DNA of 18,260 bases from a virus (Duplodnaviria > Heunggongvirae > Uroviricota > Caudoviricetes): the IMG/VR virus record IMGVR_UViG_3300039366_000282, positions 1-18,260 of that record. The stretch is one strand, 5' to 3'. This document shows, piece after piece, positions 2,699-16,627 of this stretch. How positions within the stretch are numbered: the stretch's first letter is position 1; each line of letters begins with the position of its first letter. Both the position numbers and the translations under genes were made by a program. The notes beneath the pieces were generated by a model. It was not told where the DNA came from, did not search any database, and saw only the letters and a list, made by a program, of their open reading frames with translations.

Positions 2699-3298
2699 AT
2701 GCGTAAATTATGTGCTGTTATTCTGTCCGCAGTAGTCTGGCTGGTTGCCGCTGGTACGCCAGCGAGCGCAGCAGAGCATCAGTCCACACTAAGCGCCGGG
2801 TATCTTCAGACCCATACTGATATGCCAGGCAGCGATGACCTGAAGGGCATTAATGTGAAATACCGTTATGAATTTACGGACACGCTGGGGCTGGTGACGT
2901 CATTCAGTTATGCCAATGCCAAAGATGAGCAAAAAACGCATTACAGCGATACCCGCTGGCATGAAGATTCAGTGCGTAACCGCTGGTTCAGCATGATGGC
3001 GGGGCCATCTGTACGCGTGAATGAATGGTTCAGTGCTTATGCGATGGCGGGTATGGCTTACAGCCGTGTGTCGACCTTCTCCGGGGATTATCTCCGCGTA
3101 ACTGACAACAAGGGGAAAACGCACGATGTGCTGACCGGAAGTGATGACGGTCGCCACAGCAACACGTCTCTGGCGTGGGGGGCTGGCGTGCAGTTTAACC
3201 CGACCGAATCCGTGGCCATTGACCTTGCTTATGAAGGTTCCGGCAGTGGTGACTGGCGCACTGACGGTTTCATCGTGGGTGTCGGTTATAAATTCTGA
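2699..3298 (+). CDS. lom: Lom outer-membrane protein (Ail/Lom family beta-barrel)
   Basis: 199-aa ORF with N-terminal signal peptide (MRKLCAVILSAVVWLVAAGTPASAA), C-terminal ...GVGYKF typical of OMP barrels; matches lambda Lom from memory; RBS GAGAGG 7 nt upstream of ATG; position immediately downstream of J as in lambda. Confidence 0.85.
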   Translation: MRKLCAVILSAVVWLVAAGTPASAAEHQSTLSAGYLQTHTDMPGSDDLKGINVKYRYEFTDTLGLVTSFSYANAKDEQKTHYSDTRWHEDSVRNRWFSMMAGPSVRVNEWFSAYAMAGMAYSRVSTFSGDYLRVTDNKGKTHDVLTGSDDGRHSNTSLAWGAGVQFNPTESVAIDLAYEGSGSGDWRTDGFIVGVGYKF

Positions 3299-3351: not shown

Positions 3352-3362
3352 GTGGAGTGGAT

Positions 3363-5738
3363 ATGGCAGCAGTAAAAATCTCAGGTGTGCTGAAAGATGG
3401 TGCGGGAAAACCAATACAGAACTGCACTATTCAACTGAAGGCAAAGCGTAACAGCACCACGGTACTGGTGAACACGGTGGCCTCTGAAAATCCGGATGAA
3501 GCCGGGCGTTACAGCATGGATGTTGAGTATGGCCAGTACAGCGTTATCCTGCTTGTTGAAGGTTTTCCGCCTTCACATGCCGGAACCATTACCGTCTATG
3601 AAGGTTCCAGACCAGGTACGCTGAATGATTTTCTCGGTGCCATGACGGAAGATGATGTCATGCCGGAGGCATTGCGTCGTTTTGAGGAAATGGTGGAAGA
3701 AGCGGCACGCAACGCCGAAGCCGCCTCTCAGAGCGCAGCGGCGGCAAAGAAATCCGAAACTGCAGCGGCATCATCGAAGAACGCGGCGAAAACCTCAGAA
3801 ACGAATGCAGCTAATAGTGCACAGGCGGCAGCGACCTCACAGACTGCATCAGAAAACTCCGCGACAGCAGCCAAAAAATCAGAAACCAACGCGAAAAATA
3901 GCGAGACAGCCGCAAAGACGAGCGAAACCAACGCAAAGTCCAGCCAGACGGCAGCGAAAACCAGCGAAACGAATGCCAAAGCCAGTGAAACTGCGGCGAA
4001 AAGCAGTCAGGATGCAGCAGCCGAAAGCGAGAGCGCGGCAGCCGGTTCTGCGACTTCAGCTGCTGGATCAGCAACTGCTGCGGCTAACAGTCAGAAAGCA
4101 GCGAAGACGAGTGAAACTAACGCAAAGTCCAGCCAGACGGCAGCGAAGACCAGCGAAACGAATGCCAAAGCCAGCGAAACTGCGGCGAAAAGCAGTCAGG
4201 ATGCAGCAGCCGAAAGCGAGAGTGCTGCAGCTGGTTCTGCAAGCGCGGCTGCTGCTTCTGCCACTGCATCAGCTAACAGTCAAAAAGCAGCAAAAACCAG
4301 TGAAACCAACGCAAAGGTGAGCGAAACAGCGGCTGCGAACTCAGCGAAAGCATCGGCAGCAAGCCAGACGGCAGCTAAAGCAAGCGAAGATGCAGCCAGA
4401 GAGTACGCAAGCCAGGCTGCGGAGCCGTATAAATATGTCTTACAGCCGCTGCCTGATGTGTGGATACCATTTAACGATTCGCTGGATATGATTACGGGCT
4501 TTTCGCCGTCATATAAAAAGATTGTTATTGGTGATGATGAAATAACGATGCCTGGCGACAAGGTTGTTAAGTTTAAACGCGCATCGAAAGCAACCTATAT
4601 TAATAAATCTGGTGTGCTGACAGAGGCTGCCATTGACGAGCCACGGTTTGAACGTGATGGCCTGCTTATTGAGGGGCAAAGAACGAACTACATGCTCAAT
4701 TCGGAAAGCCCTGCCAGTTGGGGGCGATCGTCAAATATGGATGTTCCCGAAACCGGGACGGATAGTTTTGGTTTTACCTATGGAAAGTTTGTCTGTAACG
4801 ATTCTCTGATTGGGCAAACCTCAGCCATTAATATGGCATCAATTGCTGCAACAAAGTCAGTTGATGTCTCAGGCGATAATAAATACGTGACAACCTCATG
4901 TCGTTTTAAAACAGAACTGCAGGTAAGGTTGCGTATCCGATTTGATAAATATGACGGTAGCGCAACAACTTTTCTTGGTGATGTGTATATTGATACACAA
5001 ACGCTTGAAATTAATATGACAGGCGGCGCTGCCTCAAGGATTACAGCGAGAGTCAGAAAGGACGAAGTTATCGGATGGATTTTTGCAGAGGCAACAATTC
5101 AGGCAATTGATGGGGAGTTAAAAATAGGTTCTCAGATACAGTATTCTCCTAAGCAGGGCGGGGCAACCGTATCTGGTGACTATATTTATCTGGCCACCCC
5201 ACAAGTAGAAAATGGGCCTTGTGTATCATCTTTTATTATATCAGGAACGACGGCGGCGACCCGCGCAAGCGATATAGTCACAGTTCCCATTAAGAATAAT
5301 CTTTATAATCTTCCTTTTACGGTTCTTTGTGAGGTACATAAGAACTGGTATAAAACGCCAAATGCAGCACCGCGTGTTTTTGATACCGGCGGTCATCAAA
5401 CCGGAGCGGCTATTATTCTTGGCTTCGGTTCTTCAGCAGATTACGACGGATTTCCTTATTGCGATATTGGTGGGTCTAACAGACGGATAAACGAAAATGC
5501 ATCACTTGAAAAAATGGTTATGGGGATGCGTGTAAAGTCTGATCAGTCTACATGCGCAGTAAGTAACGGGCGTATATCCAGCGAAACAAAAACCACATGG
5601 TCCTGTATTCAGAACACCGCAATTATCCGTATTGGAGGCCAGACTACAGCCGGGTTACGTCATTTATTTGGTCATGTAAGGAATTTCAGAATATGGCACA
5701 AGGCATTGACTGATGCTCAGGTGGGGGAGTCAATCTAA
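3363..5738 (+). CDS. stf: Side tail fibre protein: lambda Stf-like N-terminus, heptad-repeat shaft, divergent AT-rich C-terminal domain
   Basis: N-terminus MAAVKISGVLKDGAGKPIQNCTIQLKAKRNSTTV... matches lambda Stf from memory; ATG at 3363 preferred over track GTG 3357 (GGAG 5 nt upstream); long Ala/Ser/Thr/Lys heptad region (KTSETNA/KSSQTAA...); C-terminal ~430 aa encoded by visibly more AT-rich DNA, ending in a LamG-like motif (..VRNFRIWHKALTDAQV..). Confidence 0.8.
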   Translation: MAAVKISGVLKDGAGKPIQNCTIQLKAKRNSTTVLVNTVASENPDEAGRYSMDVEYGQYSVILLVEGFPPSHAGTITVYEGSRPGTLNDFLGAMTEDDVMPEALRRFEEMVEEAARNAEAASQSAAAAKKSETAAASSKNAAKTSETNAANSAQAAATSQTASENSATAAKKSETNAKNSETAAKTSETNAKSSQTAAKTSETNAKASETAAKSSQDAAAESESAAAGSATSAAGSATAAANSQKAAKTSETNAKSSQTAAKTSETNAKASETAAKSSQDAAAESESAAAGSASAAAASATASANSQKAAKTSETNAKVSETAAANSAKASAASQTAAKASEDAAREYASQAAEPYKYVLQPLPDVWIPFNDSLDMITGFSPSYKKIVIGDDEITMPGDKVVKFKRASKATYINKSGVLTEAAIDEPRFERDGLLIEGQRTNYMLNSESPASWGRSSNMDVPETGTDSFGFTYGKFVCNDSLIGQTSAINMASIAATKSVDVSGDNKYVTTSCRFKTELQVRLRIRFDKYDGSATTFLGDVYIDTQTLEINMTGGAASRITARVRKDEVIGWIFAEATIQAIDGELKIGSQIQYSPKQGGATVSGDYIYLATPQVENGPCVSSFIISGTTAATRASDIVTVPIKNNLYNLPFTVLCEVHKNWYKTPNAAPRVFDTGGHQTGAAIILGFGSSADYDGFPYCDIGGSNRRINENASLEKMVMGMRVKSDQSTCAVSNGRISSETKTTWSCIQNTAIIRIGGQTTAGLRHLFGHVRNFRIWHKALTDAQVGESI
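3906..4283 (+). repeat. 189-bp (63-codon) near-identical in-frame tandem duplication inside the tail-fibre shaft
   Basis: acgcaaagtccagccagacggcagcgaa... occurs at 3931 and again at 4120 (period 189 bp) with only a few substitutions; partial further units flank it. Confidence 0.85.
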
Positions 5739-6019
5739 TGAAAGATTTAACACTCAAATTTCCCGACAGGGCCGACTTTTCGGCCTTTATGGAGAGCATT
5801 GGCTATTATGATGACGAGTTGATGCAGGATGATATTCTTATTGACGTGATAGGTAACGTGTACAAAGAAACCGGAGAACTGACTGAAGATGGCGAACCGG
5901 TATGTGTTAAGGAAGACGGATATTTTGTAAACGTGCGCATCATTAATGATTCGCAAATATCGTCATTATTCGATGAATACGTGGTTGCTGTTGAGCATCA
6001 ACTTCGTGGCTGGATGTGA
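5738..6019 (+). CDS. Hypothetical 93-aa acidic protein, translationally coupled to the tail-fibre gene
   Basis: ATG overlaps the stf stop (TAATG at 5736-5740); GGGGGAG 8 nt upstream; no family recognised. Confidence 0.5.
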   Translation: MKDLTLKFPDRADFSAFMESIGYYDDELMQDDILIDVIGNVYKETGELTEDGEPVCVKEDGYFVNVRIINDSQISSLFDEYVVAVEHQLRGWM

Positions 6020-6028
6020 GGAAGAAAA

Positions 6029-7069
6029 ATGGCTACATCGACAGTAATTCCTGATGACATCAAAACGCTAAAATCCGACGTTAGCAAATTAAAAAACGAT
6101 CAAGGAAGCTACGCAACAAAATTATATGTAGACAGCAAAGATGAAATCGTTGGTGACTGGTCTGCTTCATGGTATCAGCAGGTATTGCCAACTAGCGGAG
6201 CTATATTTGGGAGAAAACTCCGCTCAACTCACAGGACGGCAGGTGTTGAGGATGCGTATTGCGAACTATACCTCAAAAAATGGATAGACAGTCCAGGTAA
6301 CGCAATGGCGCGCCTTAACCTGAACGATAACGGGACAAACATTTGCTGGGACTTTACCAACCTTTATGGCGGTACGATGATTTTTCCCGGTGACAGCGGA
6401 TACCTCAAAATGGGTAACTGCCTTATGTCATACAGCAAGCGTGGAAGTAACGCGCTTATTAAATTTGATTACACCGACACATTACAGATCAAATATGCCA
6501 ATCATGGGTCAACCATGACATTAAACACACAGGGAACCGCTTATGCTGGTGTTACTGCTCAATTGTGGGGCAACACCAGCCGTCCTGTTGTTTATGAAGT
6601 CGGTGTTGATGGTGGCGCTTATATGTTCTATGCGCAGAAAAATACCGATAACACCTATATGTTAAGCGTTAATGGTGCATGTCATGCCACCGCATTTAAC
6701 CAGCATTCCGACCGGGATCTGAAAGACAACATTCAGGTGATCGATAATGCAACCGACCGCATCCGTAAAATGAACGGCTATACATACACGCTTAAAGAAA
6801 ACGGTATGCCCTATGCTGGTGTCATTGCACAGGAAGCTCTGGAAGCAATCCCAGAAGTTGTAGGTTCCGCAATGAAATATCAGGACGGTGCAAGCGGATC
6901 GGAAGGTGAAGAAGGTGAACGTTATTACACAGTAGATTATTCTGGTGTTACTGGCTTGCTTGTTCAGGTAGCCAGAGAGTCAGACGACAGAATAACAGCA
7001 CTGGAAGAAGAAAACGCAGAATTAAGACAAAGATTATCTGCAATTGAGGCGGCGCTTGCGTCTAAATAA
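6029..7069 (+). CDS. Tail fibre/tailspike-like protein with C-terminal intramolecular chaperone (peptidase S74-type) domain
   Basis: RBS GAGGAAG before ATG; C-terminal region contains ..NQHSDRDLKDNIQVIDNATDRIRKMNGYTYTLKENG..YAGVIAQEALEAIPEVV.. followed by a coiled-coil tail (ALEEENAELRQRLSAIEAA), matching the SD-x-R-LK-x-NI self-cleaving chaperone signature of phage fibres as recalled. Confidence 0.65.
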   Translation: MATSTVIPDDIKTLKSDVSKLKNDQGSYATKLYVDSKDEIVGDWSASWYQQVLPTSGAIFGRKLRSTHRTAGVEDAYCELYLKKWIDSPGNAMARLNLNDNGTNICWDFTNLYGGTMIFPGDSGYLKMGNCLMSYSKRGSNALIKFDYTDTLQIKYANHGSTMTLNTQGTAYAGVTAQLWGNTSRPVVYEVGVDGGAYMFYAQKNTDNTYMLSVNGACHATAFNQHSDRDLKDNIQVIDNATDRIRKMNGYTYTLKENGMPYAGVIAQEALEAIPEVVGSAMKYQDGASGSEGEEGERYYTVDYSGVTGLLVQVARESDDRITALEEENAELRQRLSAIEAALASK

Positions 7070-7075
7070 TATTAA

Positions 7076-7098
7076 GGGGCCGAGCGCCCCGTTTTATT
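7076..7098 (+). terminator. Rho-independent terminator after the fibre module
   Basis: GGGGC-CGAGC-GCCCC hairpin followed by GTTTTATT, 7 nt after the stop at 7069. Confidence 0.55.
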
Positions 7099-7111
7099 GG
7101 GTAGGATGAAA

Positions 7112-7399
7112 ATGGATATAACACCTTTTCTTCATGCGCTTTGTGCTGTGGCTGCGCAGGTACTGGTTGGTTTTTTTACCGGAAACTGGGCTTACGGGGC
7201 GATAGCCGGTTGTACATTCTTCATTGCGCGGGAACACACCCAGGCAGAATATCGCTGGATTGAAATGTTCGGGCATGGCAAGCGGATTAACATGCCGTGG
7301 TGGGGCGGTTTTGATCCACGTGCATGGGATGTGGCAAGCCTGATGGATTTTGCTGTGCCGGTGGTGGCGTGTCTGCTGATCTGGATGTTGATCCGTTAA
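7112..7399 (+). CDS. Small hydrophobic (predicted membrane) protein, ~96 aa, unknown function
   Basis: ORF with two strongly hydrophobic stretches (ALCAVAAQVLVGFFTGNWAYGAIAGCTFFIA and FAVPVVACLLIWMLI); AGGA 5 nt upstream of ATG 7112 (track start 7097 is TTG; 7106 is an alternative ATG). Confidence 0.45.
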   Translation: MDITPFLHALCAVAAQVLVGFFTGNWAYGAIAGCTFFIAREHTQAEYRWIEMFGHGKRINMPWWGGFDPRAWDVASLMDFAVPVVACLLIWMLIR

Positions 7400-7747
7400 A
7401 TATAAAAAGTAAAAAGCCGCAGTAACTTGTCATGATAGGATACTGCGGCTGGCTGGTTAACTTTCGATAGTGCGAGTATTGAATGATTTCCAGCCGTTAC
7501 CGATTTTATATAACTGCAGTGGAATTATTCAACACACAGGCAAAACGGAATAAGCTGAGAAAAAAGCGTGCTTACCCAATCTGGGGTAAATCACGTCTGA
7601 ATGACACCTGAAAACAGGTGGTGGCCTCAAGAAGGCTTGGAATATTCTTCTTTAATGTTATGTAATTTATTGATTTTTCGTGTACGATTTTAAGACATTT
7701 ATTCCAAGAAAAATTTTTAACTCTTTGATTTTTCGACTCTGTATCAT

Positions 7748-7809
7748 CGGTCTCGAAAACCGGAGTAGGGGCAACTCTACCGGGGGTTCAAATCCCCCTC
7801 TCTCCGCCA
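7748..7809 (+). tRNA. Partial tRNA-Ser(CGA) (serU-type), 3' 62 nt only, without 5' acceptor/D-arm; att-core duplicate at the prophage boundary
   Basis: Anticodon stem-loop CCGGT-CTCGAAA-ACCGG (anticodon CGA), long variable arm, T-arm GGGGG-TTCAAAT-CCCCC, 3' acceptor strand TCTCTCC + G + CCA; no matching 5' strand (GGAGAGA...) upstream; matches E. coli serU 3' portion from memory. Confidence 0.75.
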
Positions 7810-8087
7810 ATCATTCAACAAAATCAATCACTTACAAAGCATTTTTGATTTTGTCGTGCATAAATCCCTGCATTAAAATTCCTTTCTCTCGCTCAATTTT
7901 TCTTACTACTGATGCTGTTTTTTACCATTTTGCCGCGCGTCGGGCATCCACTTTTATGCTCTCGAGTTCACACTCTTAACAACAACTTAGCCATTCCCCC
8001 GTCTCTGATGACAAAACAGTTGAACTTCAATTGTTCCAAACGGATCCTGTGAAGATATATCAAAGGAAATGGATTGTTGGAGGATGG

Positions 8088-8924
8088 ATGAAAAGAAGTG
8101 AAATCAGGAAAGCACTGGAAGCATGGTTTGATGTGGAACGCTATGAGGCGATAGAGAAACTCACCTTACAGCAGTTTTATGTTGAGGTTGAGCGGCGCAT
8201 CTTGGCTTACAGAATGTTGTTGAGCCGGAACACCATACCTACCTTTAACCGATTAATGCTGGATGATTACCGCAACAAGATCCTCAGCGGTGAAATCTTT
8301 TTCAGTGGTGATACTGAGACCATTGGATATGAGCTTGCCAGAACCTATGCGGTAAACCCTACGACAAGAAGCCACGCGCAATTTTATGCGAAAACTCTGT
8401 CATTAACCGAAGCCACGCCTGAACTCTCTGGGTTAAGCCAGTCTGAATTTCTGTCCGAATATCTGAAAGAGACATCCCTTAATAATCTTTCACGCATTAC
8501 TGTCGATATTCATCTGGAAGAAGCATCAACCGAAGAGATCATTGAACATCTGAAAGTGCTGATCCCTCAATGGAAGAGGCAGCTTAAGATGACGTCTCCA
8601 GCTCCAAGAGAGTATCGTTTCGGCAAAAGCACGTTCAGAAAAATTATTGAATATCGTCTTATCCCGATGATGGACCTGATCTTCTGGGGAGAAGATAACG
8701 GCATTAAAATCCCGCTTTCACTGATTTCCTCGTTGCTTCATGAGGACAGCGACAACGATCGTGATGAAGGAATGCTCAAGGCAACAGATTACCCGTTAGC
8801 AATGGCTTTTCTGACGGATGCGAGCTATCTGAAATCGCTTGAAGATTACATGATGGAAAACAACCACTTGAAAGACTCCCCTGTTGAAAAGCATGTAGAA
8901 GACGACAGGAATAAGAAAAAATAA
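8088..8924 (+). CDS. Hypothetical protein (278 aa from ATG 8088)
   Basis: Long ORF; track start 8031 is TTG; GGAGGA lies just upstream of ATG 8088; no family recognised. Confidence 0.5.
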   Translation: MKRSEIRKALEAWFDVERYEAIEKLTLQQFYVEVERRILAYRMLLSRNTIPTFNRLMLDDYRNKILSGEIFFSGDTETIGYELARTYAVNPTTRSHAQFYAKTLSLTEATPELSGLSQSEFLSEYLKETSLNNLSRITVDIHLEEASTEEIIEHLKVLIPQWKRQLKMTSPAPREYRFGKSTFRKIIEYRLIPMMDLIFWGEDNGIKIPLSLISSLLHEDSDNDRDEGMLKATDYPLAMAFLTDASYLKSLEDYMMENNHLKDSPVEKHVEDDRNKKK

Positions 8925-9140
8925 GCCAAGTAAAAAGGGTTACGTTCGCTCCGTGCGAACGTGATCGCATCCAGTGTCAACCGTTATCTTTCCATCCGTG
9001 CCCCTTCGAATTTTTCAAAAAAAACTTATTTGAACGTCCCTAAATTGTCATAAGCAAAATCGCTATCATTGTTCACGTCGAAACAACATAGAGAAAAGCG
9101 AAATCTCATAGAGATTACTTACAATAATAGAGGACAGACA

Positions 9141-9359
9141 ATGAAAGAAAATAATGAAACCAGCGTAAAACGATTTATCCGCGTTCCTGATGTTTTAAAT
9201 CGAGTGGGATTTAGTCGCACGACTTTATATGAACGTATTAAGGAAGGAAACTTTCCAGACAGAGTAAAAATAGGGCCAAGATGTGTCGCCTTTGTCGAAA
9301 GTGAGATTGATGAATGGATTGAAGCGGCTATTCGAAACTCACGCCAGAACGCAGCATAA
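9141..9359 (+). CDS. AlpA-family phage/island transcriptional regulator (small HTH)
   Basis: 72-aa product ..FIRVPDVLNRVGFSRTTLYERIKEGNFPDRVKIGPRCVAFVESEIDEWIE.. matches the AlpA/prophage CP4-57 regulator pattern from memory; RBS AGAGGA before ATG 9141. Confidence 0.7.
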   Translation: MKENNETSVKRFIRVPDVLNRVGFSRTTLYERIKEGNFPDRVKIGPRCVAFVESEIDEWIEAAIRNSRQNAA

Positions 9360-9440
9360 AAACAGAAACAAGATCTCGTGTCGAACAGATATCTGTTCGC
9401 TCAGGGCATCTTATTATCCTAAACAATAATGGAGAAAAAT

Positions 9441-9731
9441 ATGAAGATAGAGCTTATTACGACAAAACAGTTTATTGAACAAGCCGAATGTTATTTCAGG
9501 CGCTATATGGACGGATTGCGGAGGAATGCACCAGATGATTTTTATTATTTTCTCAACAATAAATACAATATGAATGACATTATGGAAAGTATCATTAAAA
9601 AAACGAGATATCATTTTTACGATGACACAGAAGAAAACCAAAGGAATCGGATTTATGGAGAAGTAAGCCACTGTAAGGTAAAACAACACCTTCGTCAGCT
9701 TTGGATTATCTATAAGTGTGTATACCGCTAA
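9441..9731 (+). CDS. Hypothetical small protein (96 aa)
   Basis: ORF with GGAGA 5 nt upstream of ATG 9441 (track start 9429 also possible); AT-rich; no recognised family. Confidence 0.4.
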   Translation: MKIELITTKQFIEQAECYFRRYMDGLRRNAPDDFYYFLNNKYNMNDIMESIIKKTRYHFYDDTEENQRNRIYGEVSHCKVKQHLRQLWIIYKCVYR

Positions 9732-9783
9732 TATTTATACAAATATTTTGCTATTCCAATATTAAACTAAAGAGGAAATAAAA

Positions 9784-10080
9784 ATGAATACATTTAAAAA
9801 TAAAACTACTAAAATCTTTTATGTTGTGTCCTTGCATATCTATGCGGAGCTTTTTAACTCAAAGGATAAAACGACCAGTAATATGATTATAACGCATGTA
9901 ATGGATCATGAGTTTGTTTGTAAGCTAATCGATCTGGCGATGAGAAATGCTGAAAAGCATCTTCTGAAAAAAGCATGGAAAAAGAACGCGGCTGAAAAAC
10001 TATCTGAGGTGGATTTTAAAGAGGTTAGGCAGGCATTAGCCAAAATGCACTACACTGTTCTGGCGGAATCAATATGTTGA
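9784..10080 (+). CDS. Hypothetical small protein (98 aa)
   Basis: ORF preceded by strong RBS AAAGAGGAAATAAAA-ATG; no recognised family. Confidence 0.4.
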   Translation: MNTFKNKTTKIFYVVSLHIYAELFNSKDKTTSNMIITHVMDHEFVCKLIDLAMRNAEKHLLKKAWKKNAAEKLSEVDFKEVRQALAKMHYTVLAESIC

Positions 10081-10152
10081 TATGTTCTGGTGTCTATCTG
10101 CCCCTTCTTGGGGCTGATAACAAATATTATTTTTCTATCCAAGGAGCAAAAA

Positions 10153-10395
10153 ATGACTGATGAATTTCATGTGATGTATATGTATAAAAAAATCCAAGCG
10201 GAAGCCGTAACTACTGACATCAAAACACTTGAACAGCTTTTGAAAAAGTTCAGGAGCGTTGTCAACGAACGTCGTGAAGAATACTATCAGGAGATTGGTG
10301 AGAAAAAAGCGCATAAGTTGAAAATGAAAAGATTACAAAGAATGCTTGAGAAAATGGCGTGTGACCGAGTCTCGCCAGAAGATCTCATTGACTGA
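10153..10395 (+). CDS. Hypothetical small charged/helical protein (80 aa)
   Basis: RBS AAGGAG 6 nt upstream of ATG 10153 (track ORF starts earlier at 10090 without an RBS); product lysine/glutamate-rich. Confidence 0.4.
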   Translation: MTDEFHVMYMYKKIQAEAVTTDIKTLEQLLKKFRSVVNERREEYYQEIGEKKAHKLKMKRLQRMLEKMACDRVSPEDLID

Positions 10396-10443
10396 TAAGT
10401 GTTCTGTATAATAACTTATCTATATAAAAACATGGAGGTGGTT

Positions 10444-10833
10444 ATGGGCTGGGAGCTTCACATAGTAAGAACGGAACATTGGTTCGATAGCGCAAGTGTT
10501 CCAATCAGTAGTGAAGAATGGCTCCAGCTTGTTAATGATGATAAAGAACTATCCATAGATAACAAGAACGGTGATTTTTTCGCCATATGGAGTGGTCAAA
10601 GTGAACTCGATGAACCTTGGCTTGACTGGAGTGATGGAAGAATTTCAACAAAACATCCTGACGAAGCCCTTTACTGTAAAATGTTGCAGATAGCTGAGAA
10701 GCTACATGCTGTAGTCGTTGATGAGGATGATCACAAATATTCGCTACCAAGTGACCTGATGAATCCTTCATGGGCGAATTCATCACTGACTGATAAAAAA
10801 CAAACTTTATGGAAAAGGTTGTTTTCAAAATAG
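10444..10833 (+). CDS. Hypothetical protein (129 aa, Trp/Asp-rich)
   Basis: RBS GGAGGTGG before ATG 10444 (MGWELHIVRTEHW...); track ORF starts at 10399. Confidence 0.45.
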   Translation: MGWELHIVRTEHWFDSASVPISSEEWLQLVNDDKELSIDNKNGDFFAIWSGQSELDEPWLDWSDGRISTKHPDEALYCKMLQIAEKLHAVVVDEDDHKYSLPSDLMNPSWANSSLTDKKQTLWKRLFSK

Positions 10834-11139
10834 TTTTGTCAAGTATTCAGGGAATAGCAATGGCACGCCGAATTGATCTTCATGAAATTGTTAACGCTCT
10901 CAACGGGAGCTTTGTTAGTCGAAACAACGACTTTAGAAGATACGGGGCTATTGGGCAGTTAAAATCATTGGCTATCTGTATTAGCTCAGACTTGATCTGG
11001 TGGTTTTCACTGGTAGCACACTATCAAATCTGACAGTCTGCTATGAGCGAGGAGCGGAAGTTAGTACCTCCGATGCTATAGCGCAGCGTTCTTAATTATG
11101 TAAAAATATTCTACCATTCAAGTAAAGTAAGTGAAAACA

Positions 11140-12057
11140 ATGGAATTTAAACTTGATCTAAAATCCAATGCTTTAGATAGTTTTAATGAAGCCATCAAAA
11201 AATTCCAGCAAGGAGAAAATGGAGATTATAAAGCTTTCAAGTTTGCTATACTACATTTGTCTCATTGTTTTGAGTTGACGTTGAAAATGTATATTCAAAC
11301 ATTAGACGAAAACTTGATTTTTTCAAAATGCTACAGAGCAGTAATAGAGCGTGCCAAAAGTGACAAAGTCAATCTTATTGAAGCTTTTTATAAAATGGAG
11401 GCTGAAGAATTCGACTTTGAAGAACTTATTAAAGGACATAAAAATCCTCATACTATTACTTTGGATCAAGCAATATCGATAGCTACACATGAAAAGTGTA
11501 GCATAACCTCAGTGGACTTAGTTGATAAAGAGTTACTAGATGATATCGCTTGGATGAAAGATCTTAGAAATTCAATTGAGCATTACGAATTCTCGTTTAC
11601 TATTAAATATGTTCGTCTGGCAATGGGGCGTTTGGTCAGAGGGTTGGCTGAGTTCTCTGATATATTTGGTTTATACGATCTAGATAAAGAAGTTTCTAAG
11701 GAAATATCTAATTCCTATAATATACTTTCTGACGAATATGAGCATAATGTTCATGAAGGTTATCTTGATGTAGCTGATGCTAGAAAAGCAGCATTTCTTG
11801 GGGTTAGACCAAAGTTTTTTGAGTTAGTTAATTGGAAAGAATATATCTGCGATTACTGTGGTCATGAGACAATGATTCAAAATAACGATTCTACTTCAGG
11901 ATATCGTTGTACGTATTGCGGTGCCGAAGACTCAGGCTCAATTGAAGTCACATGTGATGTTTGTGGTGCTGAATGGCCTGAAGAGGAAATGAGTTCTTGG
12001 CTTGGGGAGGGGACTAACACTTGTCCTGACTGTAGAGATATTAGCAACAAACCATGA
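11140..12057 (+). CDS. HEPN-like (R-x4-H) domain protein with C-terminal four-CxxC zinc-ribbon region; candidate abortive-infection/RNase effector
   Basis: 305 aa from ATG 11140 (track GTG 11131 alternative); helical N-terminal region ending in ..WMKDLRNSIEHYEF.. (R-N-x3-H at nt 11566-11583); C-terminus carries CDYC, CTYC, CDVC, CPDC pairs; RBS weak. Confidence 0.55.
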   Translation: MEFKLDLKSNALDSFNEAIKKFQQGENGDYKAFKFAILHLSHCFELTLKMYIQTLDENLIFSKCYRAVIERAKSDKVNLIEAFYKMEAEEFDFEELIKGHKNPHTITLDQAISIATHEKCSITSVDLVDKELLDDIAWMKDLRNSIEHYEFSFTIKYVRLAMGRLVRGLAEFSDIFGLYDLDKEVSKEISNSYNILSDEYEHNVHEGYLDVADARKAAFLGVRPKFFELVNWKEYICDYCGHETMIQNNDSTSGYRCTYCGAEDSGSIEVTCDVCGAEWPEEEMSSWLGEGTNTCPDCRDISNKP

Positions 12058-12326
12058 CTAAGATTAATCCTTGATTGAAGATGCATTCTTGTCCGCCTCT
12101 CATGTTTTATAATGTATAATGCTTCTGGCATTATAGCGTGAGAGGCGGAAGATATTGTTAACCGAATTGGCAAGCCTAATTTATAACATTATTGCTAATA
12201 TGGAGGAATAGATTTCTGTTCATCCGCTTACATGGAGTATATACTGTAAACCTTACATCCTTTGAATAAACGGGATGGGAGGCGTCCATCCTGTTTAAGA
12301 TCTCCATCATAAAGATTAAAAATTTC

Positions 12327-12851
12327 TTATTCTTCTGAAGTAAGCATCTTCTCCTGATGGGGGTGATACTTATATGCATAATTAAAGAGGGTCAGATCTA
12401 GTTCAAACGTTTCTCGCATACCATCCATCGTTACGGACGTATTCAGTAATCCACGACGGGCCAGAGATTCTACACCCGGTTCAGGATCATCAAGCCTATT
12501 CATTTGTCCCCATGTCATAACAGAACCACCATGCGTCACAAAGTGCATGACTACTTCTTTTTCTCTTCCAGTCAGAGAATTATAAAGCGTTGCCAGTCGT
12601 TTTTCTGCAACTGCCTCTCCCTTGCGGGTAATAATTCGCAGATATAATCCTCCCGCAATAATCTTTACAACCGGAAAAATAATAACAAAAGAAAACAGAG
12701 TCAGTACATAATCGCGAAGAATAAGATAACAGGTAACTCCTGCGATTCCGGAGACAAATATTGCGATGTTAATGCTGAAGTCTTTCTCCGAATAAACACG
12801 ATCAAACATTTTTTCAAGAAATTCTGTCACGATTTCATTCCTTGTTAACAC
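12327..12851 (-). CDS. Hypothetical membrane protein (two predicted TM helices near N-terminus, soluble C-terminal domain)
   Basis: Minus-strand ORF; hydrophobic segments FSINIAIFVSGIAGVTCYLIL and LTLFSFVIIFPVVKIIAGGLYL; start ambiguous (GTG 12851 or ATG 12809, neither with a clear SD). Confidence 0.45.
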   Translation of the reverse strand: MLTRNEIVTEFLEKMFDRVYSEKDFSINIAIFVSGIAGVTCYLILRDYVLTLFSFVIIFPVVKIIAGGLYLRIITRKGEAVAEKRLATLYNSLTGREKEVVMHFVTHGGSVMTWGQMNRLDDPEPGVESLARRGLLNTSVTMDGMRETFELDLTLFNYAYKYHPHQEKMLTSEE

Positions 12852-13283
12852 TAAAGATGCTCGAGTGGGTATGAATATACCGCAATAGTGCGGGAGGATT
12901 TCATTAGTGTCCCATCAAAATCTGGCTTGAACTGGCTATTGAGTCGCTAATCATTATAAATTTTAGCTGTCAATACTACCATAATAAATAGCAGCATTCT
13001 CAAGAGTTGTGGCGAACGCAACAAAACTCTCCCCAACAACCCGCTTGTAAAGATGCTTTTATACTTCTAACGTCCGCTCTTGGCACGGAGTTGCCTGTCA
13101 AATTAGGTTTAGATCTGTGCGATAGCTGTGTCAGGTCAAATCTGAGCTAATAGAGCTATCGATACCGGCGTCACTTCGATGAGGTTTTCTCTCATAGCCG
13201 AGAGCGACACCCTCTCTTCGCACGTAGGATTTTCTTTGGGAGAGAACAAAAACCGCCAAATTTGGTTGACGGCTTTATTGTGA

Positions 13284-13688
13284 TCAGAGCGCGAAGTCTT
13301 CCAGCGTTTTACCAGCTTCGATAGCAGCAGCGATCGCTTTAGGAGTACGGCCTTGACCTGTCCAAGTCTGCTCATTACCATTTTCATCTGTATATTTGTA
13401 TTTAGCAGGACGAGGAGCACGAGTTGATTTGGCTTTAGGCTGGGATGAACTAACAGCAGCAAGGAGTTCTGCCGGATCAATGCCATCTTCTAACAGTTTC
13501 TGGCGGAAGGCTTCCAGTTTAGCCTGACGTTCTTCTTGTTCTTTACGGGCTGAATTTTCTTCCTCACGGCGATCTTCAACGACAGCAGAGAGCTTTTCCA
13601 GCATCTCTTCCAGAGTTGTCAGATCTGTTTCACGAGCATGTGCGCGAAGTGTACGAATATTGTTCAGTGCCTTGAGAGCTTCACTCAT
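13284..13688 (-). CDS. H-NS family nucleoid-associated protein (island-encoded H-NS/StpA paralog)
   Basis: 134-aa product [28 protein letters not shown].. with C-terminal DNA-binding motif [12 protein letters not shown] and ..[12 protein letters not shown]..; matches E. coli H-NS/StpA from memory. Confidence 0.85.
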
Positions 13689-13844
13689 AGTATGTCATCC
13701 GGTGTTTTAAAATGGGCGATTAATAAAAATAATGCTTACGGTGATGTTGGAAAAATCAAAAAAACAGTCAGTAAATAATATAGTAAACATTATCGTTTAA
13801 GCAATCTAATACATCTCATTTCACACGAATAACATAGGAGTGCT

Positions 13845-14324
13845 TTAAAGAGACATTTTCCTGCGCTTCTGGCTTGATGGCTCGAACTCTGACGAGATGC
13901 GAGATAGCTGGTCAAGACTGTATTCAATTGAACGCTGGAACTCAACAGCGGCTTCTGTGCGTTGTTTTATGACCAAGGCTACTATTTCTTCATCACTCTT
14001 TTCTGAAATAGCCTTACGGTATAACACGCGTTCGTTAAATAAATCGAGATTTCCTGATGATTTGGCTGATGTGTTAGCTTTTGAACTGCTGATAGGATTT
14101 AGCTCATCAATAAAGTATTCAATAAGCGATTCTCTCTTTTTATCCAGCCTGCGAAGTTCGGTATGTGCGGACTTAAATTTCTGAGCTTTTATCAATGGAA
14201 TATCATCAGAACGCAGTTTGCGATATTCATTTCTGTATTCTTCTATCGGAATATGGTTTTTTAGTTCTTTGACTGTATTTACGTATTCGATTAAATCACT
14301 GTTGTCTGTTTTTACTTTTCTCAT
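13845..14324 (-). CDS. Hypothetical protein (159 aa, charged/helical)
   Basis: Minus-strand ORF with GAGG 9 nt upstream of ATG 14324; no recognised family. Confidence 0.45.
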   Translation of the reverse strand: MRKVKTDNSDLIEYVNTVKELKNHIPIEEYRNEYRKLRSDDIPLIKAQKFKSAHTELRRLDKKRESLIEYFIDELNPISSSKANTSAKSSGNLDLFNERVLYRKAISEKSDEEIVALVIKQRTEAAVEFQRSIEYSLDQLSRISSEFEPSSQKRRKMSL

Positions 14325-14600
14325 AAGAAATACCTCGTAGATAAAATAGTTGATATATTTATATTACGAGATATGGTGCAGGTGTCAAATTTATGGGGCT
14401 GGGCGCTATTTTTGTATTTTACTTTTAGCTACTGTTTCTTTTGAGAAGAACCGAGAGTTAAATGTGCCGTTCTTAGTCAGTATCTTAGCGTCCACTAATA
14501 ATTTTAACCGTTCTTCATCGGTTCTCTTAGCCGCTAATTTTTTCACCTTTTTTGTCAGATCTTCAATATCTATTATTTACATCCTTATCTTTTAAGTTGT

Positions 14601-15401
14601 TTAAACAATCTGAGGTGTTTTATACTGTTCAAAAATAAGATTTCCTGAATATGTATAAATTTCTATTTTTCCTACTTTACCATCAGTGCCTTTTATCGAG
14701 AAACGAATTAATCTTTCATTATAATATTTTTCTAACAAGTCTGGTCGTTCAGTAAAATATCTTGATTTTGTTGAGCGATCTTTCAGATAGTCGCAGCTTG
14801 AACAAACCTGCTTTTTGAAATCCTTCTCAGATAAACCACTTTCTTTTATTTTTAAAGAAATAAAAGCCTTTAAAGGTCGTTCATATTCATCTCTTTCTTT
14901 TGCTTTGCGTATTTGTTCTTCTTTCTTGCGCTGTTCTTCAATACGGTAAAGTCTGCCTTGTTCTTCCTGCGCTCGTATTATATCCTCTTGAATCATTTTA
15001 CTGATGATTGAGGCAGGAACAACACTGATACCTTCAGACCACCCCTGATAAGGATTATTGTTTTGTATATTTCGGACTGTAGCAGATATTCTGTCTATAT
15101 CCAGTTCTTTATCAAAGGAAACAATGCGTTGTCTGTTTTCTTTTGATATGAGCTTAGCCGTGTTTACCGGGGATTCCAGACCCTTTAATTTGAATGTAGC
15201 TACGGCACTGTTGCGACTTCTATAATATAATGCTTGTTTCTTATCTCCAATATAACATTCAAGGTAAGAGAAAATCTTAAACTCCTGAATGCCAAATGTT
15301 TCCTCAAGCATGGTCATCTGCTCAGCCAATATATTTAGTATATCACTCTTGGATAGTTTTTCGTGGAGCTTAATCTCAAGCGAACCGGGTAGTTTTTTCA
15401 T
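14601..15401 (-). CDS. Hypothetical protein (266 aa), second gene of minus-strand operon
   Basis: Minus-strand ORF; AAGGA 7 nt upstream of ATG 15401; 27-bp gap to the upstream gene; central lysine/glutamate-rich helical segment; no recognised family. Confidence 0.5.
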   Translation of the reverse strand: MKKLPGSLEIKLHEKLSKSDILNILAEQMTMLEETFGIQEFKIFSYLECYIGDKKQALYYRSRNSAVATFKLKGLESPVNTAKLISKENRQRIVSFDKELDIDRISATVRNIQNNNPYQGWSEGISVVPASIISKMIQEDIIRAQEEQGRLYRIEEQRKKEEQIRKAKERDEYERPLKAFISLKIKESGLSEKDFKKQVCSSCDYLKDRSTKSRYFTERPDLLEKYYNERLIRFSIKGTDGKVGKIEIYTYSGNLIFEQYKTPQIV

Positions 15402-15428
15402 TGTTATTTCCTTGTTGTTGTTATTTTA

Positions 15429-16163
15429 TCAGGATACTTTCTGCATATGAGAGTCGGCGTCAACAGCGTTTCTTCTTGCTTCCTCATTTTCCTTTGTTCT
15501 TTTATATACTTTTCGTGGTTTATCAATATGTATGCTGTTATTTGTATTAGGAACAGCATTATTCTTTTTCTTCTTACTGAAAACAAATGCGTCAGTATAG
15601 ATTTCTTTGGTCTCAGTTTCTAAGGATAGGGTTCTTCTTTCACTTTTTGACATAGCTGAATAACTTTCTGGATACTGTTCTATTTCTGCGCAAAGATTGC
15701 GAGCGTTGCTCAACTGTTCTTTACGTTTCTGATCCAGTTGGTGACTCATTCCTTTAGCGAAAATGTTAGAGTTGATATAGAGATGACCATGATGCTCGAC
15801 GAGTATTCCTTTCTGTCTGAGTTTTTTAAAAATGTTAGACATATTACCGGAAGCGATGTTCAGTGCTTTACACAGCGATGATTGCGAAAGATTGATCAGA
15901 TTTCCAAACTCCATATACTCCAGAATATAGGTTAATACACGGAATTCATTCTTGGATATGTCAAGATCAGAGAAGACACGAAAGTTGGAAGTAAAAGCAA
16001 ATACATAAGGTTGTGAAAACGATATAGCTTTATCTTCCTCAGAAGAAATAACTGTCGTTGATTTTATTTCTTTGTTTTGTAGCAAGCGTCTTGCGATATC
16101 AATCTTTTGTTCTGTAGTTAATGATTCAAATAAGTGTAATAGATCAGCATCTGGTGTATTCAT
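15429..16163 (-). CDS. Winged-helix DNA-binding protein, RepL-like (putative replication initiator or regulator)
   Basis: 244 aa from ATG 16163 (track start 16226 would lie upstream of the predicted promoter); segment ..ISKNEFRVLTYILEYMEFGNLINLSQSSLCKALNIASGNMSNIFKKLRQKGILVEHHGHLYINSNIFAKG.. resembles RepL-type wHTH proteins as recalled; repeated palindromes upstream. Confidence 0.5.
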   Translation of the reverse strand: MNTPDADLLHLFESLTTEQKIDIARRLLQNKEIKSTTVISSEEDKAISFSQPYVFAFTSNFRVFSDLDISKNEFRVLTYILEYMEFGNLINLSQSSLCKALNIASGNMSNIFKKLRQKGILVEHHGHLYINSNIFAKGMSHQLDQKRKEQLSNARNLCAEIEQYPESYSAMSKSERRTLSLETETKEIYTDAFVFSKKKKNNAVPNTNNSIHIDKPRKVYKRTKENEEARRNAVDADSHMQKVS

Positions 16164-16197
16164 ATTATTCTCTCTTATTATTTTTGTTATATATATT

Positions 16198-16226
16198 TTA
16201 ATACTATGCAAAAAAGTGAAAGTCAA
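16198..16226 (-). promoter_or_regulatory. Putative sigma70 promoter for the minus-strand operon (TTGACT-17-TATTAA)
   Basis: On the minus strand, -35 TTGACT (16221-16226) and -10 TATTAA (16198-16203) are separated by 17 nt, about 35 nt upstream of ATG 16163. Confidence 0.4.
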
Positions 16227-16287
16227 TAGTAGAACTATAAATAAAATAGGAAGTATATTCTTATGACAATGTTATATGTTAAAAAAA

Positions 16288-16371
16288 CTATGTTCGAACA
16301 TAGATCTTGCTATGTTCGAACATAGGACGGATCTATGTTTGAACATAGGAGTTTGCTATGTTCGAACATAG
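16288..16371. promoter_or_regulatory. Array of four 16-bp palindromes CTATGTTCGAACATAG (one with a single mismatch) at 22-23-bp spacing; putative operator/iteron array
   Basis: Perfect palindromes at 16288-16303, 16310-16325, 16356-16371 and CTATGTTTGAACATAG at 16333-16348; located 60-150 bp upstream of the predicted promoter of the RepL-like gene. Confidence 0.6.
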
Positions 16372-16627
16372 GAAAAAAAGTTGTGAAGCCGCGATTTTAC
16401 TGGTCCGGGACTATGCTTATAATTAAATAATTAGTAAGAAGTTAAGAGAGTCCAGTTTTACTTTTGCGTTATGTTTTAGTGGTTTTACAGGGGGTATTGT
16501 ATTCCTTAATAACTGCTATCAGCGAAGTGATTGTTTCGAACAATCACGAACCGCTGCTTTTATTGCGAGAGCTTAATTAAGATTTCTTTTGTTTTATTAG
16601 CGTCTACGACGCGATCTTTTTTTGGAT

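What the first reader, a model, noticed from the sequence alone, without database searches (positions are those of the whole stretch)
3363..5738. Mosaic side tail fibre: lambda-like N-terminus joined to an AT-rich C-terminal domain with a LamG-like end
The first third matches the lambda Stf anchor and the middle is a heptad-repeat shaft. From about nt 4440 the coding DNA becomes AT-rich and the protein is unrelated to lambda Stf, ending in ..GLRHLFGHVRNFRIWHKALTDAQVGE, which resembles the C-terminal strand of LamG/concanavalin-like lectin domains. This suggests a horizontally swapped receptor-binding module and a different host receptor.
Basis: partly seen in the sequence, partly recalled or inferred. 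Interest (0 to 1): 0.5.

Follow-up and report, generated by a model that had tools for sequence, protein, structure and literature searches.

The report
Mosaic prophage side tail fibre, lectin-like end
This is an ordinary, widely shared E. coli prophage side-tail-fibre gene: a lambda-type anchor and coiled-coil shaft joined to a common, already catalogued two-domain lectin-like end module that always travels with a small partner gene and usually with a second, exchangeable fibre gene.

Summary
ORF 3363-5738 (791 aa) has a lambda Stf collar (PF08400, E 6e-67), then 36 unbroken Ala/Ser-rich heptads. At about residue 358 (nt ~4434) GC falls from 0.54 to 0.44 and similarity to lambda ends.

It is not rare. 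373 of 5,426 complete E. coli genomes hold at least 80% of 3357-7100 (module, partner and second-fibre genes). Related modules occur in 219 phage records from unrelated families. A 64%-identical copy in phage IrisVonRoten Gp22 is published as a "galectin-like domain".

In 85 of 85 loci a ~90-aa acidic gene starts at the module's stop codon. Most loci then carry a second fibre gene with a conserved N-terminal peptide and an otherwise unrelated body (here 346 aa with an S74 chaperone).

Best reading: Stf is the proximal part of a two-part fibre. Its lectin-like end probably binds surface glycan and carries the distal fibre. Both functions are inferred. Interest is low to moderate.

The parts
3363..5738 (+). 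stf: side tail fibre protein, 791 aa from the ATG at 3363 (the mechanical ORF starts at GTG 3357)
   Evidence: Full-length match to phrog_1419 'tail protein'. 99.9% identical copies are annotated in RefSeq E. coli genomes.
3369..3758 (+). Lambda-type N-terminal collar/anchor domain (PF08400 phage_tail_N)
   Evidence: E 5.9e-67. 83% DNA identity to lambda stf over 3369-3715. In Ur-lambda, Stf residues 1-91 form the collar on the tail tip (PMC12617516).
3663..4430 (+). Ala/Ser/Thr/Glu/Lys-rich shaft of 36 uninterrupted heptads, a presumed trimeric coiled coil
   Evidence: lag-7 autocorrelation 0.48 vs 0.186 +/- 0.022. The equivalent Ur-lambda region (residues 102-393) is a coiled coil (PMC12617516).
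3904..4396 (+). 189-nt (63-aa) tandem repeat, 2.2-2.6 copies, inside the shaft. It explains the 728-aa versus 791-aa allele lengths.
   Evidence: Alleles of 728 aa with an identical C-terminal module are.
4434..5735 (+). Mobile 434-aa C-terminal module, AT-rich, predicted as two jelly-roll domains. It is always at the C-terminus in homologues.
4434..4673 (+). Conserved N-terminal segment of the module (PLPDVWIPFNDSL ... EPRFERDGLLIEGQRTN). It serves as the recombination junction and is a candidate conserved interface.
   Evidence: mean pairwise identity 0.65-0.89 among 18 non-redundant modules
4665..5267 (+). Central jelly-roll domain that matches NCBIfam NF048003 'GTA_spike_fiber'. It contains the most variable stretch (residues 458-617).
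   Evidence: 49 bits against a cut-off of 36. Rcc01080 E 7.9e-7 and 2.6e-35 with a profile. pLDDT is about 90 or more for module residues ~90-260, except one 10-residue block at 78.
5275..5735 (+). C-terminal LamG-like (Laminin_G_3 / concanavalin-like) domain. The Pfam-aligned strands lie at about 5565-5723. A second variable stretch covers residues 678-757.
   Evidence: Lower model confidence here (pLDDT 47-88).
5738..6019 (+). 93-aa acidic partner protein (pI 4.05). Its ATG overlaps the stf stop codon (TAATG). Function unknown.
   Evidence: A homologue lies immediately downstream of the module in 83 of 83 loci plus 2 of 2 distant phages. phrog_1361, unknown function. No Pfam or NCBIfam hit.
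6029..7069 (+). Second (distal) fibre protein, 346 aa, with the conserved N-terminal peptide MATSTVIPDDIKTLK. A Peptidase_S74 intramolecular chaperone lies at residues 227-278 (nt 6707-6862).
   Evidence: PF13884, E 4.8e-14; phrog_4563; conserved N-terminal motif across families

Best explanation
ORF 3363-5738 encodes the proximal subunit of a two-component lambdoid side tail fibre.

Shown here:
- It has a lambda-type collar domain, which anchors the fibre to the tail tip.
- A shaft of 36 heptads follows, with a 63-aa tandem duplication.
- At residue ~358 there is a recombination junction to a 434-aa module. The model predicts two concanavalin-A/LamG-like jelly-roll domains.
- The module is homologous to the RcGTA head-spike fibre Rcc01080, to the tail-fibre-holding baseplate wedge proteins of Pseudomonas phages Pa193 and E217, and to the published 'galectin-like' end of IrisVonRoten Gp22.
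- The module is the first gene segment of an AT-rich cassette. Next comes a translationally coupled 93-aa acidic protein. Usually a second fibre gene follows, whose first ~16 residues are conserved and whose body is freely exchangeable.

Inferred:
- The trimeric shaft presents three lectin-like modules.
- Their variable patches (residues 458-617 and 678-757) bind a variable surface polysaccharide (O-antigen or capsule) for first, reversible adsorption.
- Their conserved parts, possibly with the 93-aa protein, hold the N-terminal peptide of the distal fibre. After self-cleavage of its S74 chaperone, that fibre supplies a second binding specificity.
- The Ala/Ser heptad shaft, shared by fibres of several phage families, supplies the homology that lets the whole cassette be swapped between phages.
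For: Domain calls: PF08400; NF048003 above its cut-off; Laminin_G_3 in 19 of 38 homologues and sub-threshold in this protein.

Sequence homology to solved entries: Rcc01080 2.6e-35, Pa193 gp46 3.5e-15, E217 gp45 4.4e-15, gp17 tail fibre of 9occ 8.5e-11.

Function of relatives: Rcc01080 binds the capsule polysaccharide (PMC7296036, PMC10218006). Pa193 gp46 is the protein the trimeric tail fibre attaches to (PMC11456595). For IrisVonRoten Gp22, the published structure prediction has the distal receptor-binding fibre Gp24 attached, and its galectin-like end is proposed as an extra receptor-binding domain (10.1101/2024.09.12.612763). Gp22 is 63.7% identical over the module.

Mosaic junction.

Synteny: the small partner is present in 85 of 85 loci.

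Distal fibres: the motif M[AV]T.T[VT]IP.DI..LK is conserved on otherwise unrelated fibres of 234, 245, 340, 346, 574 and 576 aa; a near variant (MTTYTNIPQDITKLK) heads a 586-aa fibre.

Independence of variation: the module's variable-region types reassort with distal-fibre types, so their variation is not explained by the partner fibre.

Conserved and variable map of the module.
Against: No binding or assembly experiment exists for this module in any E. coli phage.

The AlphaFold model is only moderately confident outside the central domain (pLDDT 47-88; pTM 0.53; 38-sequence alignment). Coordinates could not be inspected, so which surfaces vary is unknown.

In Pa193 gp46 the fibre-attachment loop (residues 80-113) lies outside the region homologous to this module (residues 200-449). 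That precedent for docking is therefore indirect.

In about 20 of 83 loci no second fibre follows the small gene. There the module must work without one, or those prophages are decayed.

The 93-aa protein could not be modelled (pLDDT 58.8), so its role as adaptor or chaperone is open.

This protein alone does not reach the Pfam LamG gathering score.
Confidence: 0.6

Rival explanations
1. The module is the only receptor-binding tip of Stf. The 93-aa protein is merely its folding chaperone, a functional analogue of lambda Tfa. The 346-aa protein is an independent fibre that attaches elsewhere or is a leftover.
For: The module is always C-terminal. It has a lectin-like fold, and its relative Rcc01080 binds capsule (PMC10218006). 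The small gene stays when the second fibre gene is absent (about 20 loci), as expected for a module-specific chaperone. The 93-aa gene sits where tfa sits in lambda.
Against: Distal fibres with unrelated bodies keep the same N-terminal ~16-residue peptide wherever they follow this module, across lambdoid, T1-like, T5-like and Queuovirinae phages. That is best explained by docking on a conserved partner encoded next to them. The published AlphaFold-Multimer model of IrisVonRoten places Gp24 on Gp22 (10.1101/2024.09.12.612763). There is no similarity between the 93-aa protein and lambda Tfa.
Confidence: 0.2
2. The module is a purely structural branching adaptor that holds the distal fibre and does not bind any host receptor itself.
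For: Sequence homology to the Pa193 gp46 and E217 gp45 baseplate wedge proteins, which carry tail fibres (PMC11456595). A conserved docking-type peptide is present on distal fibres.
Against: Two long stretches of the module are hypervariable between alleles that share near-identical flanks. That variation reassorts independently of the distal fibre type. This pattern is typical of receptor-contacting surfaces and is unnecessary for an adaptor that binds a conserved peptide. Loci without a distal fibre keep an intact module. The closest characterised relative binds polysaccharide (PMC10218006).
Confidence: 0.12
3. The module is an enzyme, a GH16-like glycanase or lyase with the concanavalin fold, that degrades O-antigen or capsule rather than just binding it.
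Confidence: 0.05

Closest known systems
Lambda (Ur-lambda) side tail fibre Stf with its assembly protein Tfa
   Same: Same position after J and lom. The N-terminal collar domain (PF08400) is homologous at about 85% over the first ~120 aa. The same kind of Ala/Ser heptad coiled-coil shaft follows (PMC12617516).
   Different: The C-terminal half is unrelated. There is no gp37-like distal domain and no similarity to orf-314. There is no Tfa. Instead a 93-aa unrelated partner and a second fibre gene follow. The receptor is therefore unlikely to be OmpC.
IrisVonRoten (Bas32, T5-like) lateral tail fibre: proximal Gp22, small Gp23, T-shaped distal Gp24
   Same: The last 434 aa of Gp22 are 63.7% identical to the window module. 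The same three-gene order is present with a homologous 92-aa middle gene (E 3e-20). The distal fibre starts with the same peptide motif. The authors describe the Gp22 end as a 'galectin-like domain' and possible extra receptor-binding domain, with Gp24 attached to Gp22 (10.1101/2024.09.12.612763).
   Different: The N-terminal anchor is T5-type, not lambda-type. The distal fibre is a 574-aa dual-domain T-shaped protein with no detectable similarity to the 346-aa protein here beyond the N-terminal peptide.
RcGTA head spike fibre Rcc01080 (NCBIfam NF048003, PDB 6TB9 chain F3)
   Same: Sequence homology covers the conserved N-terminal segment plus the central jelly roll (E 7.9e-7 single sequence, 2.6e-35 with a profile). 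The NCBIfam model scores above its cut-off. Rcc01080 binds capsule polysaccharide (PMC10218006).
   Different: Rcc01080 is a 325-aa monomer on the capsid vertices, held by an N-terminal Ile/Leu-Gly repeat peptide. Its alignment stops before the LamG-like end of the window module. Only residues 2-10 are resolved experimentally (PMC7296036).
Pa193 gp46 and E217 gp45 baseplate wedge proteins of Pseudomonas PB1-like myophages (PDB 9B45, 8ENV)
   Same: They are the closest solved structures by sequence profile (E ~4e-15) and the top Foldseek PDB match over ~380-400 columns. Pa193 gp46 carries the trimeric tail fibre (PMC11456595).
   Different: They are baseplate components, not fibre ends. About 14% identity. 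The fibre-attachment loop of gp46 lies outside the homologous region.
Laminin_G_3 / concanavalin A-like lectin-glucanase superfamily (PF13385), including CBM40, pentraxins and the BoNT Hcn domain
   Different: This protein scores below the Pfam gathering threshold (16.9-19.5 against 27.6 bits). No ligand or metal site could be assessed.

Membership tests
Lambda-type side tail fibre (Stf) | N-terminal prophage tail fibre collar domain (PF08400) | tested here: met
   E 5.9e-67, 224 bits against a cut-off of 26.6, residues 5-134
Lambda-type side tail fibre (Stf) | Gene located directly after J and lom in a lambdoid tail module | tested here: met
   J domains at 49-2631 and Ail/Lom at 2699-3298. 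Same order as lambda.
Lambda-type side tail fibre (Stf) | Heptad-periodic proximal coiled-coil shaft | tested here: met
   Lag-7 autocorrelation 0.48 vs 0.186 +/- 0.022. Coiled-coil geometry itself was not modelled.
Lambda-type side tail fibre (Stf) | Lambda-type distal receptor-binding domain plus Tfa assembly protein | tested here: not met
   No similarity to lambda orf-314. No Tfa homologue downstream: the 93-aa protein has no hit to Tfa, and the window diverges from EC28 at ~7390, before the tfa remnant present there.
LamG / Laminin_G_3 (concanavalin A-like lectin-glucanase superfamily) | Pfam PF13385 match at or above the gathering score | tested here: not met
   16.9 bits (E 0.007) for the module and 19.5 bits (E 0.0012) for the last 162 aa, against a cut-off of 27.6. 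Homologues P0155, P0273, P0169 and P0299 reach 30-40 bits.
LamG / Laminin_G_3 (concanavalin A-like lectin-glucanase superfamily) | Beta-sandwich jelly-roll fold superposable on family members | tested here: met
LamG / Laminin_G_3 (concanavalin A-like lectin-glucanase superfamily) | Carbohydrate or metal-binding site on the concave face or loops | not testable with these tools
GTA head spike fibre domain (NCBIfam NF048003 / Rcc01080) | HMM match above the curated cut-off | tested here: met
   49 bits against a cut-off of 36, residues 437-637 matched to profile 1-181 of 182
GTA head spike fibre domain (NCBIfam NF048003 / Rcc01080) | Significant sequence homology to Rcc01080 itself | tested here: met
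   phmmer E 7.9e-7. Family profile E 2.6e-35.
GTA head spike fibre domain (NCBIfam NF048003 / Rcc01080) | N-terminal Ile/Leu-Gly repeat peptide that plugs into a capsid penton base protein (head location) | tested here: not met
   The domain here follows a tail-fibre shaft. No such peptide is seen in the translation, and the context is J-lom-stf.
GTA head spike fibre domain (NCBIfam NF048003 / Rcc01080) | Binding to capsular polysaccharide | not testable with these tools
   Shown only for Rcc01080 (PMC10218006).
Two-component lateral fibre of the IrisVonRoten Gp22/Gp23/Gp24 type | Proximal fibre ends in the homologous lectin-like module | tested here: met
   63.7% identity over 434 aa (H48)
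Two-component lateral fibre of the IrisVonRoten Gp22/Gp23/Gp24 type | Homologous ~90-aa gene directly after the module | tested here: met
   83 of 83 loci plus 2 distant phages
Two-component lateral fibre of the IrisVonRoten Gp22/Gp23/Gp24 type | Distal fibre gene with the conserved N-terminal peptide | tested here: met
   MATSTVIPDDIKTLK here against MVTKTVIPTDITKLK in Gp24
Two-component lateral fibre of the IrisVonRoten Gp22/Gp23/Gp24 type | Physical attachment of the distal fibre to the proximal fibre | not testable with these tools
   Only single chains can be modelled here. The published evidence is an AlphaFold-Multimer prediction (10.1101/2024.09.12.612763).

The most novel reading that the evidence does not exclude
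The 434-aa lectin-like module, its obligatory 93-aa partner and the conserved ~16-residue N-terminal peptide of the downstream fibre may together form a universal plug-and-socket system. Unrelated phage families (lambdoid, T1-like, T5-like, Queuovirinae and possibly rV5-like) would use it to exchange distal fibre tips while keeping a second, independently varying glycan-binding site on the socket. The 93-aa protein would be a so far undescribed structural adaptor rather than a chaperone.
Probability: 0.3. Interest if true: 0.55.

Novelty: already known. Interest (0 to 1): 0.28.

Why it matters
Side tail fibres set the first step of host recognition, so their modules matter for predicting prophage and phage host range and for engineering lambda-based delivery particles.

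This allele adds nothing new as such. The gene is common, its domains are already in NCBIfam, PHROGs and Pfam, and a close homologue's lectin-like end is described in the BASEL work.

Two by-products of the check are more useful:
- A precise, naturally used fusion point at about residue 358, which carries the motif LQPLPDVWIPF.
- The invariable linkage to a 93-aa gene, together with a conserved docking-type peptide on exchangeable distal fibres.

Anyone transplanting this receptor module would probably need to move the small gene with it, and perhaps the distal fibre too.

Tried and rejected
- AlphaFold of the 93-aa partner with 38 close homologues gave pLDDT 58.8. That is too poor for a fold search, so none was run on it.
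- The afdb50 fold library was unavailable. BFVD was used instead.
- Pfam and NCBIfam find nothing for the 93-aa protein. It has no BLASTP similarity to lambda Tfa.
- The branched LtfA/LtfB fibres of DT57C were considered as a model. LtfA ends in an S74 chaperone, not this module, so it is a different architecture.
- The Eligo lambda-chimera paper was checked for this module or for a required accessory gene. Neither is mentioned.
- A literature search for LamG, tail fibre and O-antigen gave nothing relevant.
- A local alignment meant to pin the junction to a residue failed. The Ala/Ser heptads align with the shafts of unrelated fibres, so the boundary rests on the 30-residue identity profile.
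- An enzymatic (GH16-like) reading was considered and set aside (see rivals).
- ARAGORN finds no tRNA in the window.
Full report
**1. What is at 3363-5738**

The window carries the end of a lambdoid tail module.
- The 3' part of J lies at 49-2631, with Phage-tail_3, Ig_J and the GpJ C-terminal receptor domain.
- An Ail/Lom gene lies at 2699-3298.
- The ORF in question follows.

The mechanical ORF starts at GTG 3357. The ATG at 3363 gives MAAVKISG..., collinear with lambda Stf MAVKISG. The quoted C-terminal peptide is present.

**2.

- *Anchor.* PF08400 'prophage tail fibre N-terminal' covers residues 5-134 (E 5.9e-67). The first ~120 residues are nearly identical to lambda, and DNA homology runs 3369-3715 at 83%. 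In Ur-lambda these residues form the collar that fixes the fibre to the tail tip. Residues 102-393 there are a trimeric coiled coil (PMC12617516).
- *Shaft.* Residues ~101-356 are 36 uninterrupted heptads (KTSETNA, KSSQTAA ...). Residue identity at lag 7 is 0.48 against 0.186 +/- 0.022 in shuffles, with equal peaks at lags 14, 21 and 28. TRF finds periods of 21, 42 and 189 nt. The 189-nt unit (63 aa) is present in 2.2-2.6 copies at 3904-4396. This explains why the commonest database alleles with an identical C-terminus are 728 aa, that is 791 minus 63.
- *Compositional break.* GC is 0.542 up to 4433 and 0.438 from 4434 to the stop. The lambda C-terminal part (orf-314) shows no similarity.

**3. 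The break is a true module boundary**

I computed a 30-residue identity profile against full-length relatives.
- Other E. coli Stf alleles share the N-terminus and residues 361-450 at 83-100%. They fall to 13-40% in residues 451-600.
- Proteins with unrelated N-termini are unrelated up to residue ~360 and 83-100% identical from there to the end. These include VogelGryff and ESCO3 of the Queuovirinae and fibres with P2-type PF03406/PF12571 N-termini.

In 88 representatives of 50%-identity clusters whose BLASTP match spans the module, the homologous ~430 residues end within about a dozen residues of the protein's C-terminus, usually within 0-6. The family is large. It has 2,019 clusters at E <= 1e-3 and 219 phage records, including lambdoid phages, T1-like Drexlerviridae, T5-like Markadamsvirinae, rV5-like Vequintavirinae, Dhillonvirus and Queuovirinae.

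Several of these unrelated fibres also have SETNAK-type heptads just upstream of the module. This gives a plausible homology substrate for the swaps (inference).

**4. What the module is**

- NCBIfam NF048003 'GTA_spike_fiber' matches residues 437-637 at 49 bits, above its cut-off of 36.
- The only PDB sequence hit of the single protein is the RcGTA head spike fibre Rcc01080 (E 7.9e-7).
- With a profile of 14 distant modules the PDB hits are stronger: Rcc01080 2.6e-35, Pa193 gp46 'baseplate wedge 2' 3.5e-15, E217 gp45 4.4e-15, and a gp17 tail fibre (9occ) 8.5e-11.
- Rcc01080 is unresolved in the cryo-EM map apart from residues 2-10. It binds the Rhodobacter capsule polysaccharide (PMC7296036, PMC10218006).
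- Pa193 gp46 is the wedge protein that holds the trimeric tail fibre (PMC11456595).
- Pfam Laminin_G_3 matches the last 53 residues of the window protein to profile positions 98-150 of 151.
- 19 of 38 aligned homologues match Laminin_G_3 (best E 3.9e-10). In six homologues checked individually, the match covers the last ~110 residues, and four of them score 30-40 bits.
- NCBI names such paralogues 'LamG-like jellyroll fold domain-containing protein'.

An AlphaFold2 model of the 434 residues used 38 sequences of 30-92% identity. It is all-beta with mean pLDDT 76. pLDDT is about 90 or more across most of the central domain (one 10-residue block at 78) and 47-88 in the flanks.
- Foldseek adds two-domain matches to Pa193 gp46, E217 gp45, a tandem galectin and laminin LG pairs.
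- It also matches viral proteins labelled 'Concanavalin A-like lectin/glucanases superfamily' or 'LamG-like jellyroll' over 420-470 columns.

I conclude that the module is two tandem concanavalin-like jelly rolls. The claim for the second domain rests mainly on Pfam.

**5. It is common and already catalogued**

- 373 of 5,426 complete E. coli genomes hold at least 80% of 3357-7100, several at 99.9% identity.
- PHROG 1419 is a full-length profile of this protein (793/793).
- PGAP annotates it as 'prophage tail fiber N-terminal domain-containing protein'. Where the repeat region is frameshifted, PGAP calls it a pseudogene plus a 'phage head spike fiber domain-containing protein'.
- The T5-like phage IrisVonRoten has the module at 63.7% identity at the end of Gp22.
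[quoted passage not shown] They place the T-shaped O16-associated fibre Gp24 on Gp22 (10.1101/2024.09.12.612763).

**6.

The stop codon of stf overlaps the ATG of a 93-aa acidic ORF (TAATG; pI 4.05). This ORF belongs to phrog_1361, of unknown function.

I fetched 80 viral contigs with a profile of distant modules and added three phage loci. All 83 have a homologue of this small ORF starting within a few bases of the module's stop (E 1e-7 to 1e-62). Two further distant cases do too: rV5-like nomo (E 7e-20) and Seuratvirus SA126VB (E 1.4e-26).

Most loci then carry a second fibre gene.
- Bodies of 234, 245, 340, 346, 574 and 576 aa begin with the peptide M[AV]T.T[VT]IP.DI..LK; a 586-aa fibre begins with a near variant, MTTYTNIPQDITKLK. 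Between the size classes, similarity beyond this peptide is weak or undetectable (E ~1e-6 or no hit).
- Here the body is 346 aa with a Peptidase_S74 intramolecular chaperone at residues 227-278.
- About 20 loci lack the second fibre. In these the small gene is followed directly by a ~100-aa membrane protein, which also follows the cassette here.

Low GC extends over all three genes (0.44, 0.42, 0.45), consistent with transfer as one cassette.

**7. Conserved and variable map**

I compared 18 non-redundant modules. Values are mean pairwise identity in 20-residue bins.

| Residues | Mean pairwise identity | Character |
|---|---|---|
| 358-437 | 0.65-0.89 | conserved |
| 458-617 | 0.29-0.51 | variable |
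| 618-677 | 0.60-0.68 | intermediate |
| 678-757 | 0.34-0.42 | variable |
| 758-791 | about 0.75 | conserved |

Types of the two variable stretches combine freely with different distal-fibre types. For example, the window's type occurs with 234-aa and 346-aa fibres. The variation therefore does not track the partner fibre. The partner's contact peptide is itself conserved.

**8. Interpretation**

Shown:
- The mosaic architecture.
- The homologies.
- The predicted lectin-like fold.
- The abundance.
- The three-gene synteny.
- The conserved N-terminal peptide of the distal fibres.

Inferred:
- The variable faces of the jelly rolls bind variable surface glycans, by analogy with Rcc01080 and from the pattern of variation.
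- The conserved parts, perhaps with the 93-aa protein, hold the distal fibre. This follows from the conserved peptide, from the Pa193 gp46 precedent and from the published IrisVonRoten prediction.

Three rivals remain open and are scored separately: sole receptor-binding tip plus chaperone, pure adaptor, and enzyme. The role of the 93-aa protein is unresolved, because its model was unusable (pLDDT 58.8).

**9. Verdict**

However, the feature is a common, already annotated Stf variant, and it is the proximal half of a two-part fibre rather than a simple swapped tip.

Novelty is 'already known'. Interest is low to moderate. It is slightly raised by the strictly linked small gene and the conserved docking-type peptide, which none of the papers I read analyses as such.

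Noticed in passing
window 5738-6019 (+): A 93-aa acidic ORF (pI 4.05) has a start codon that overlaps the stf stop (TAATG). A homologue sits in this exact position after every one of 85 examined copies of the module, in five or more phage families. It has no Pfam or NCBIfam family and belongs to phrog_1361, 'unknown function'. AlphaFold gave only pLDDT 58.8.
   Followed up: partly
window 6029-7069 (+): This is a second fibre gene of 346 aa with a Peptidase_S74 self-cleaving chaperone (residues 227-278; predicted cleavage before S227 in HSDRDLK). Its first ~16 residues (MATSTVIPDDIKTLKS) are conserved on otherwise unrelated fibres that follow this module in T1-like, T5-like, Queuovirinae and lambdoid phages. 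That suggests a shared docking peptide.
   Followed up: partly
window 7106-7399 (+): A ~97-aa hydrophobic protein (MKMDITPFLHALCAVAAQ...; phrog_1443, unknown function) follows the fibre cassette here and in most related prophage loci. In loci that lack the second fibre it comes directly after the 93-aa gene. It may be a membrane 'moron' or exclusion protein.
   Followed up: no
window 3904-4396 (+): A 189-nt (63-aa) tandem repeat lies inside the stf shaft. Alleles differ by one unit (728 aa against 791 aa). In some RefSeq genomes (for example EC28) PGAP splits the gene into a pseudogene plus a 'phage head spike fiber domain-containing protein', probably because of errors or slippage in this repeat.
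   Followed up: partly
window 3652-4320 (+) and 3728-4561 (-): Long alternative-frame and antisense ORFs (222, 83, 87 and 93 aa) lie inside the repeat region. They are most likely by-products of the low-complexity GCN/AAR-rich sequence, like the annotated orf206b inside lambda stf.
   Followed up: no
window ~7390-7810: Collinearity with the EC28 prophage (98.2%) ends at 7390, so the tfa remnant and DNA invertase found there are missing here. At 7755-7806 there is a tRNA/tmRNA-like 3' end fragment (weak Rfam tmRNA hit at 7781-7798, E 1e-4; ARAGORN finds no gene). It looks like an attachment-site remnant at the border of the next element.
   Followed up: partly
window 7748-18260: A separate AT-rich (GC 0.37) island is 100% identical to chromosomal segments of several E. 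coli genomes. It encodes a RepL replication/maintenance protein, H-NS family proteins, DUF6387 and DUF4756 proteins and many hypotheticals. No complete E. coli genome in the collection holds 80% or more of the whole 18-kb window in one place. The junction at 7000-8600 does exist, for example in strain GN02100 at 97.6%.
   Followed up: partly
L086 (phage nomo) 324-5095: In rV5-like phages the module ends a 1,479-aa fibre. The small partner is longer (110 aa) and the next gene lacks the conserved N-terminal peptide. The 'socket' may therefore be used without a plugged-in fibre in that family.
   Followed up: no
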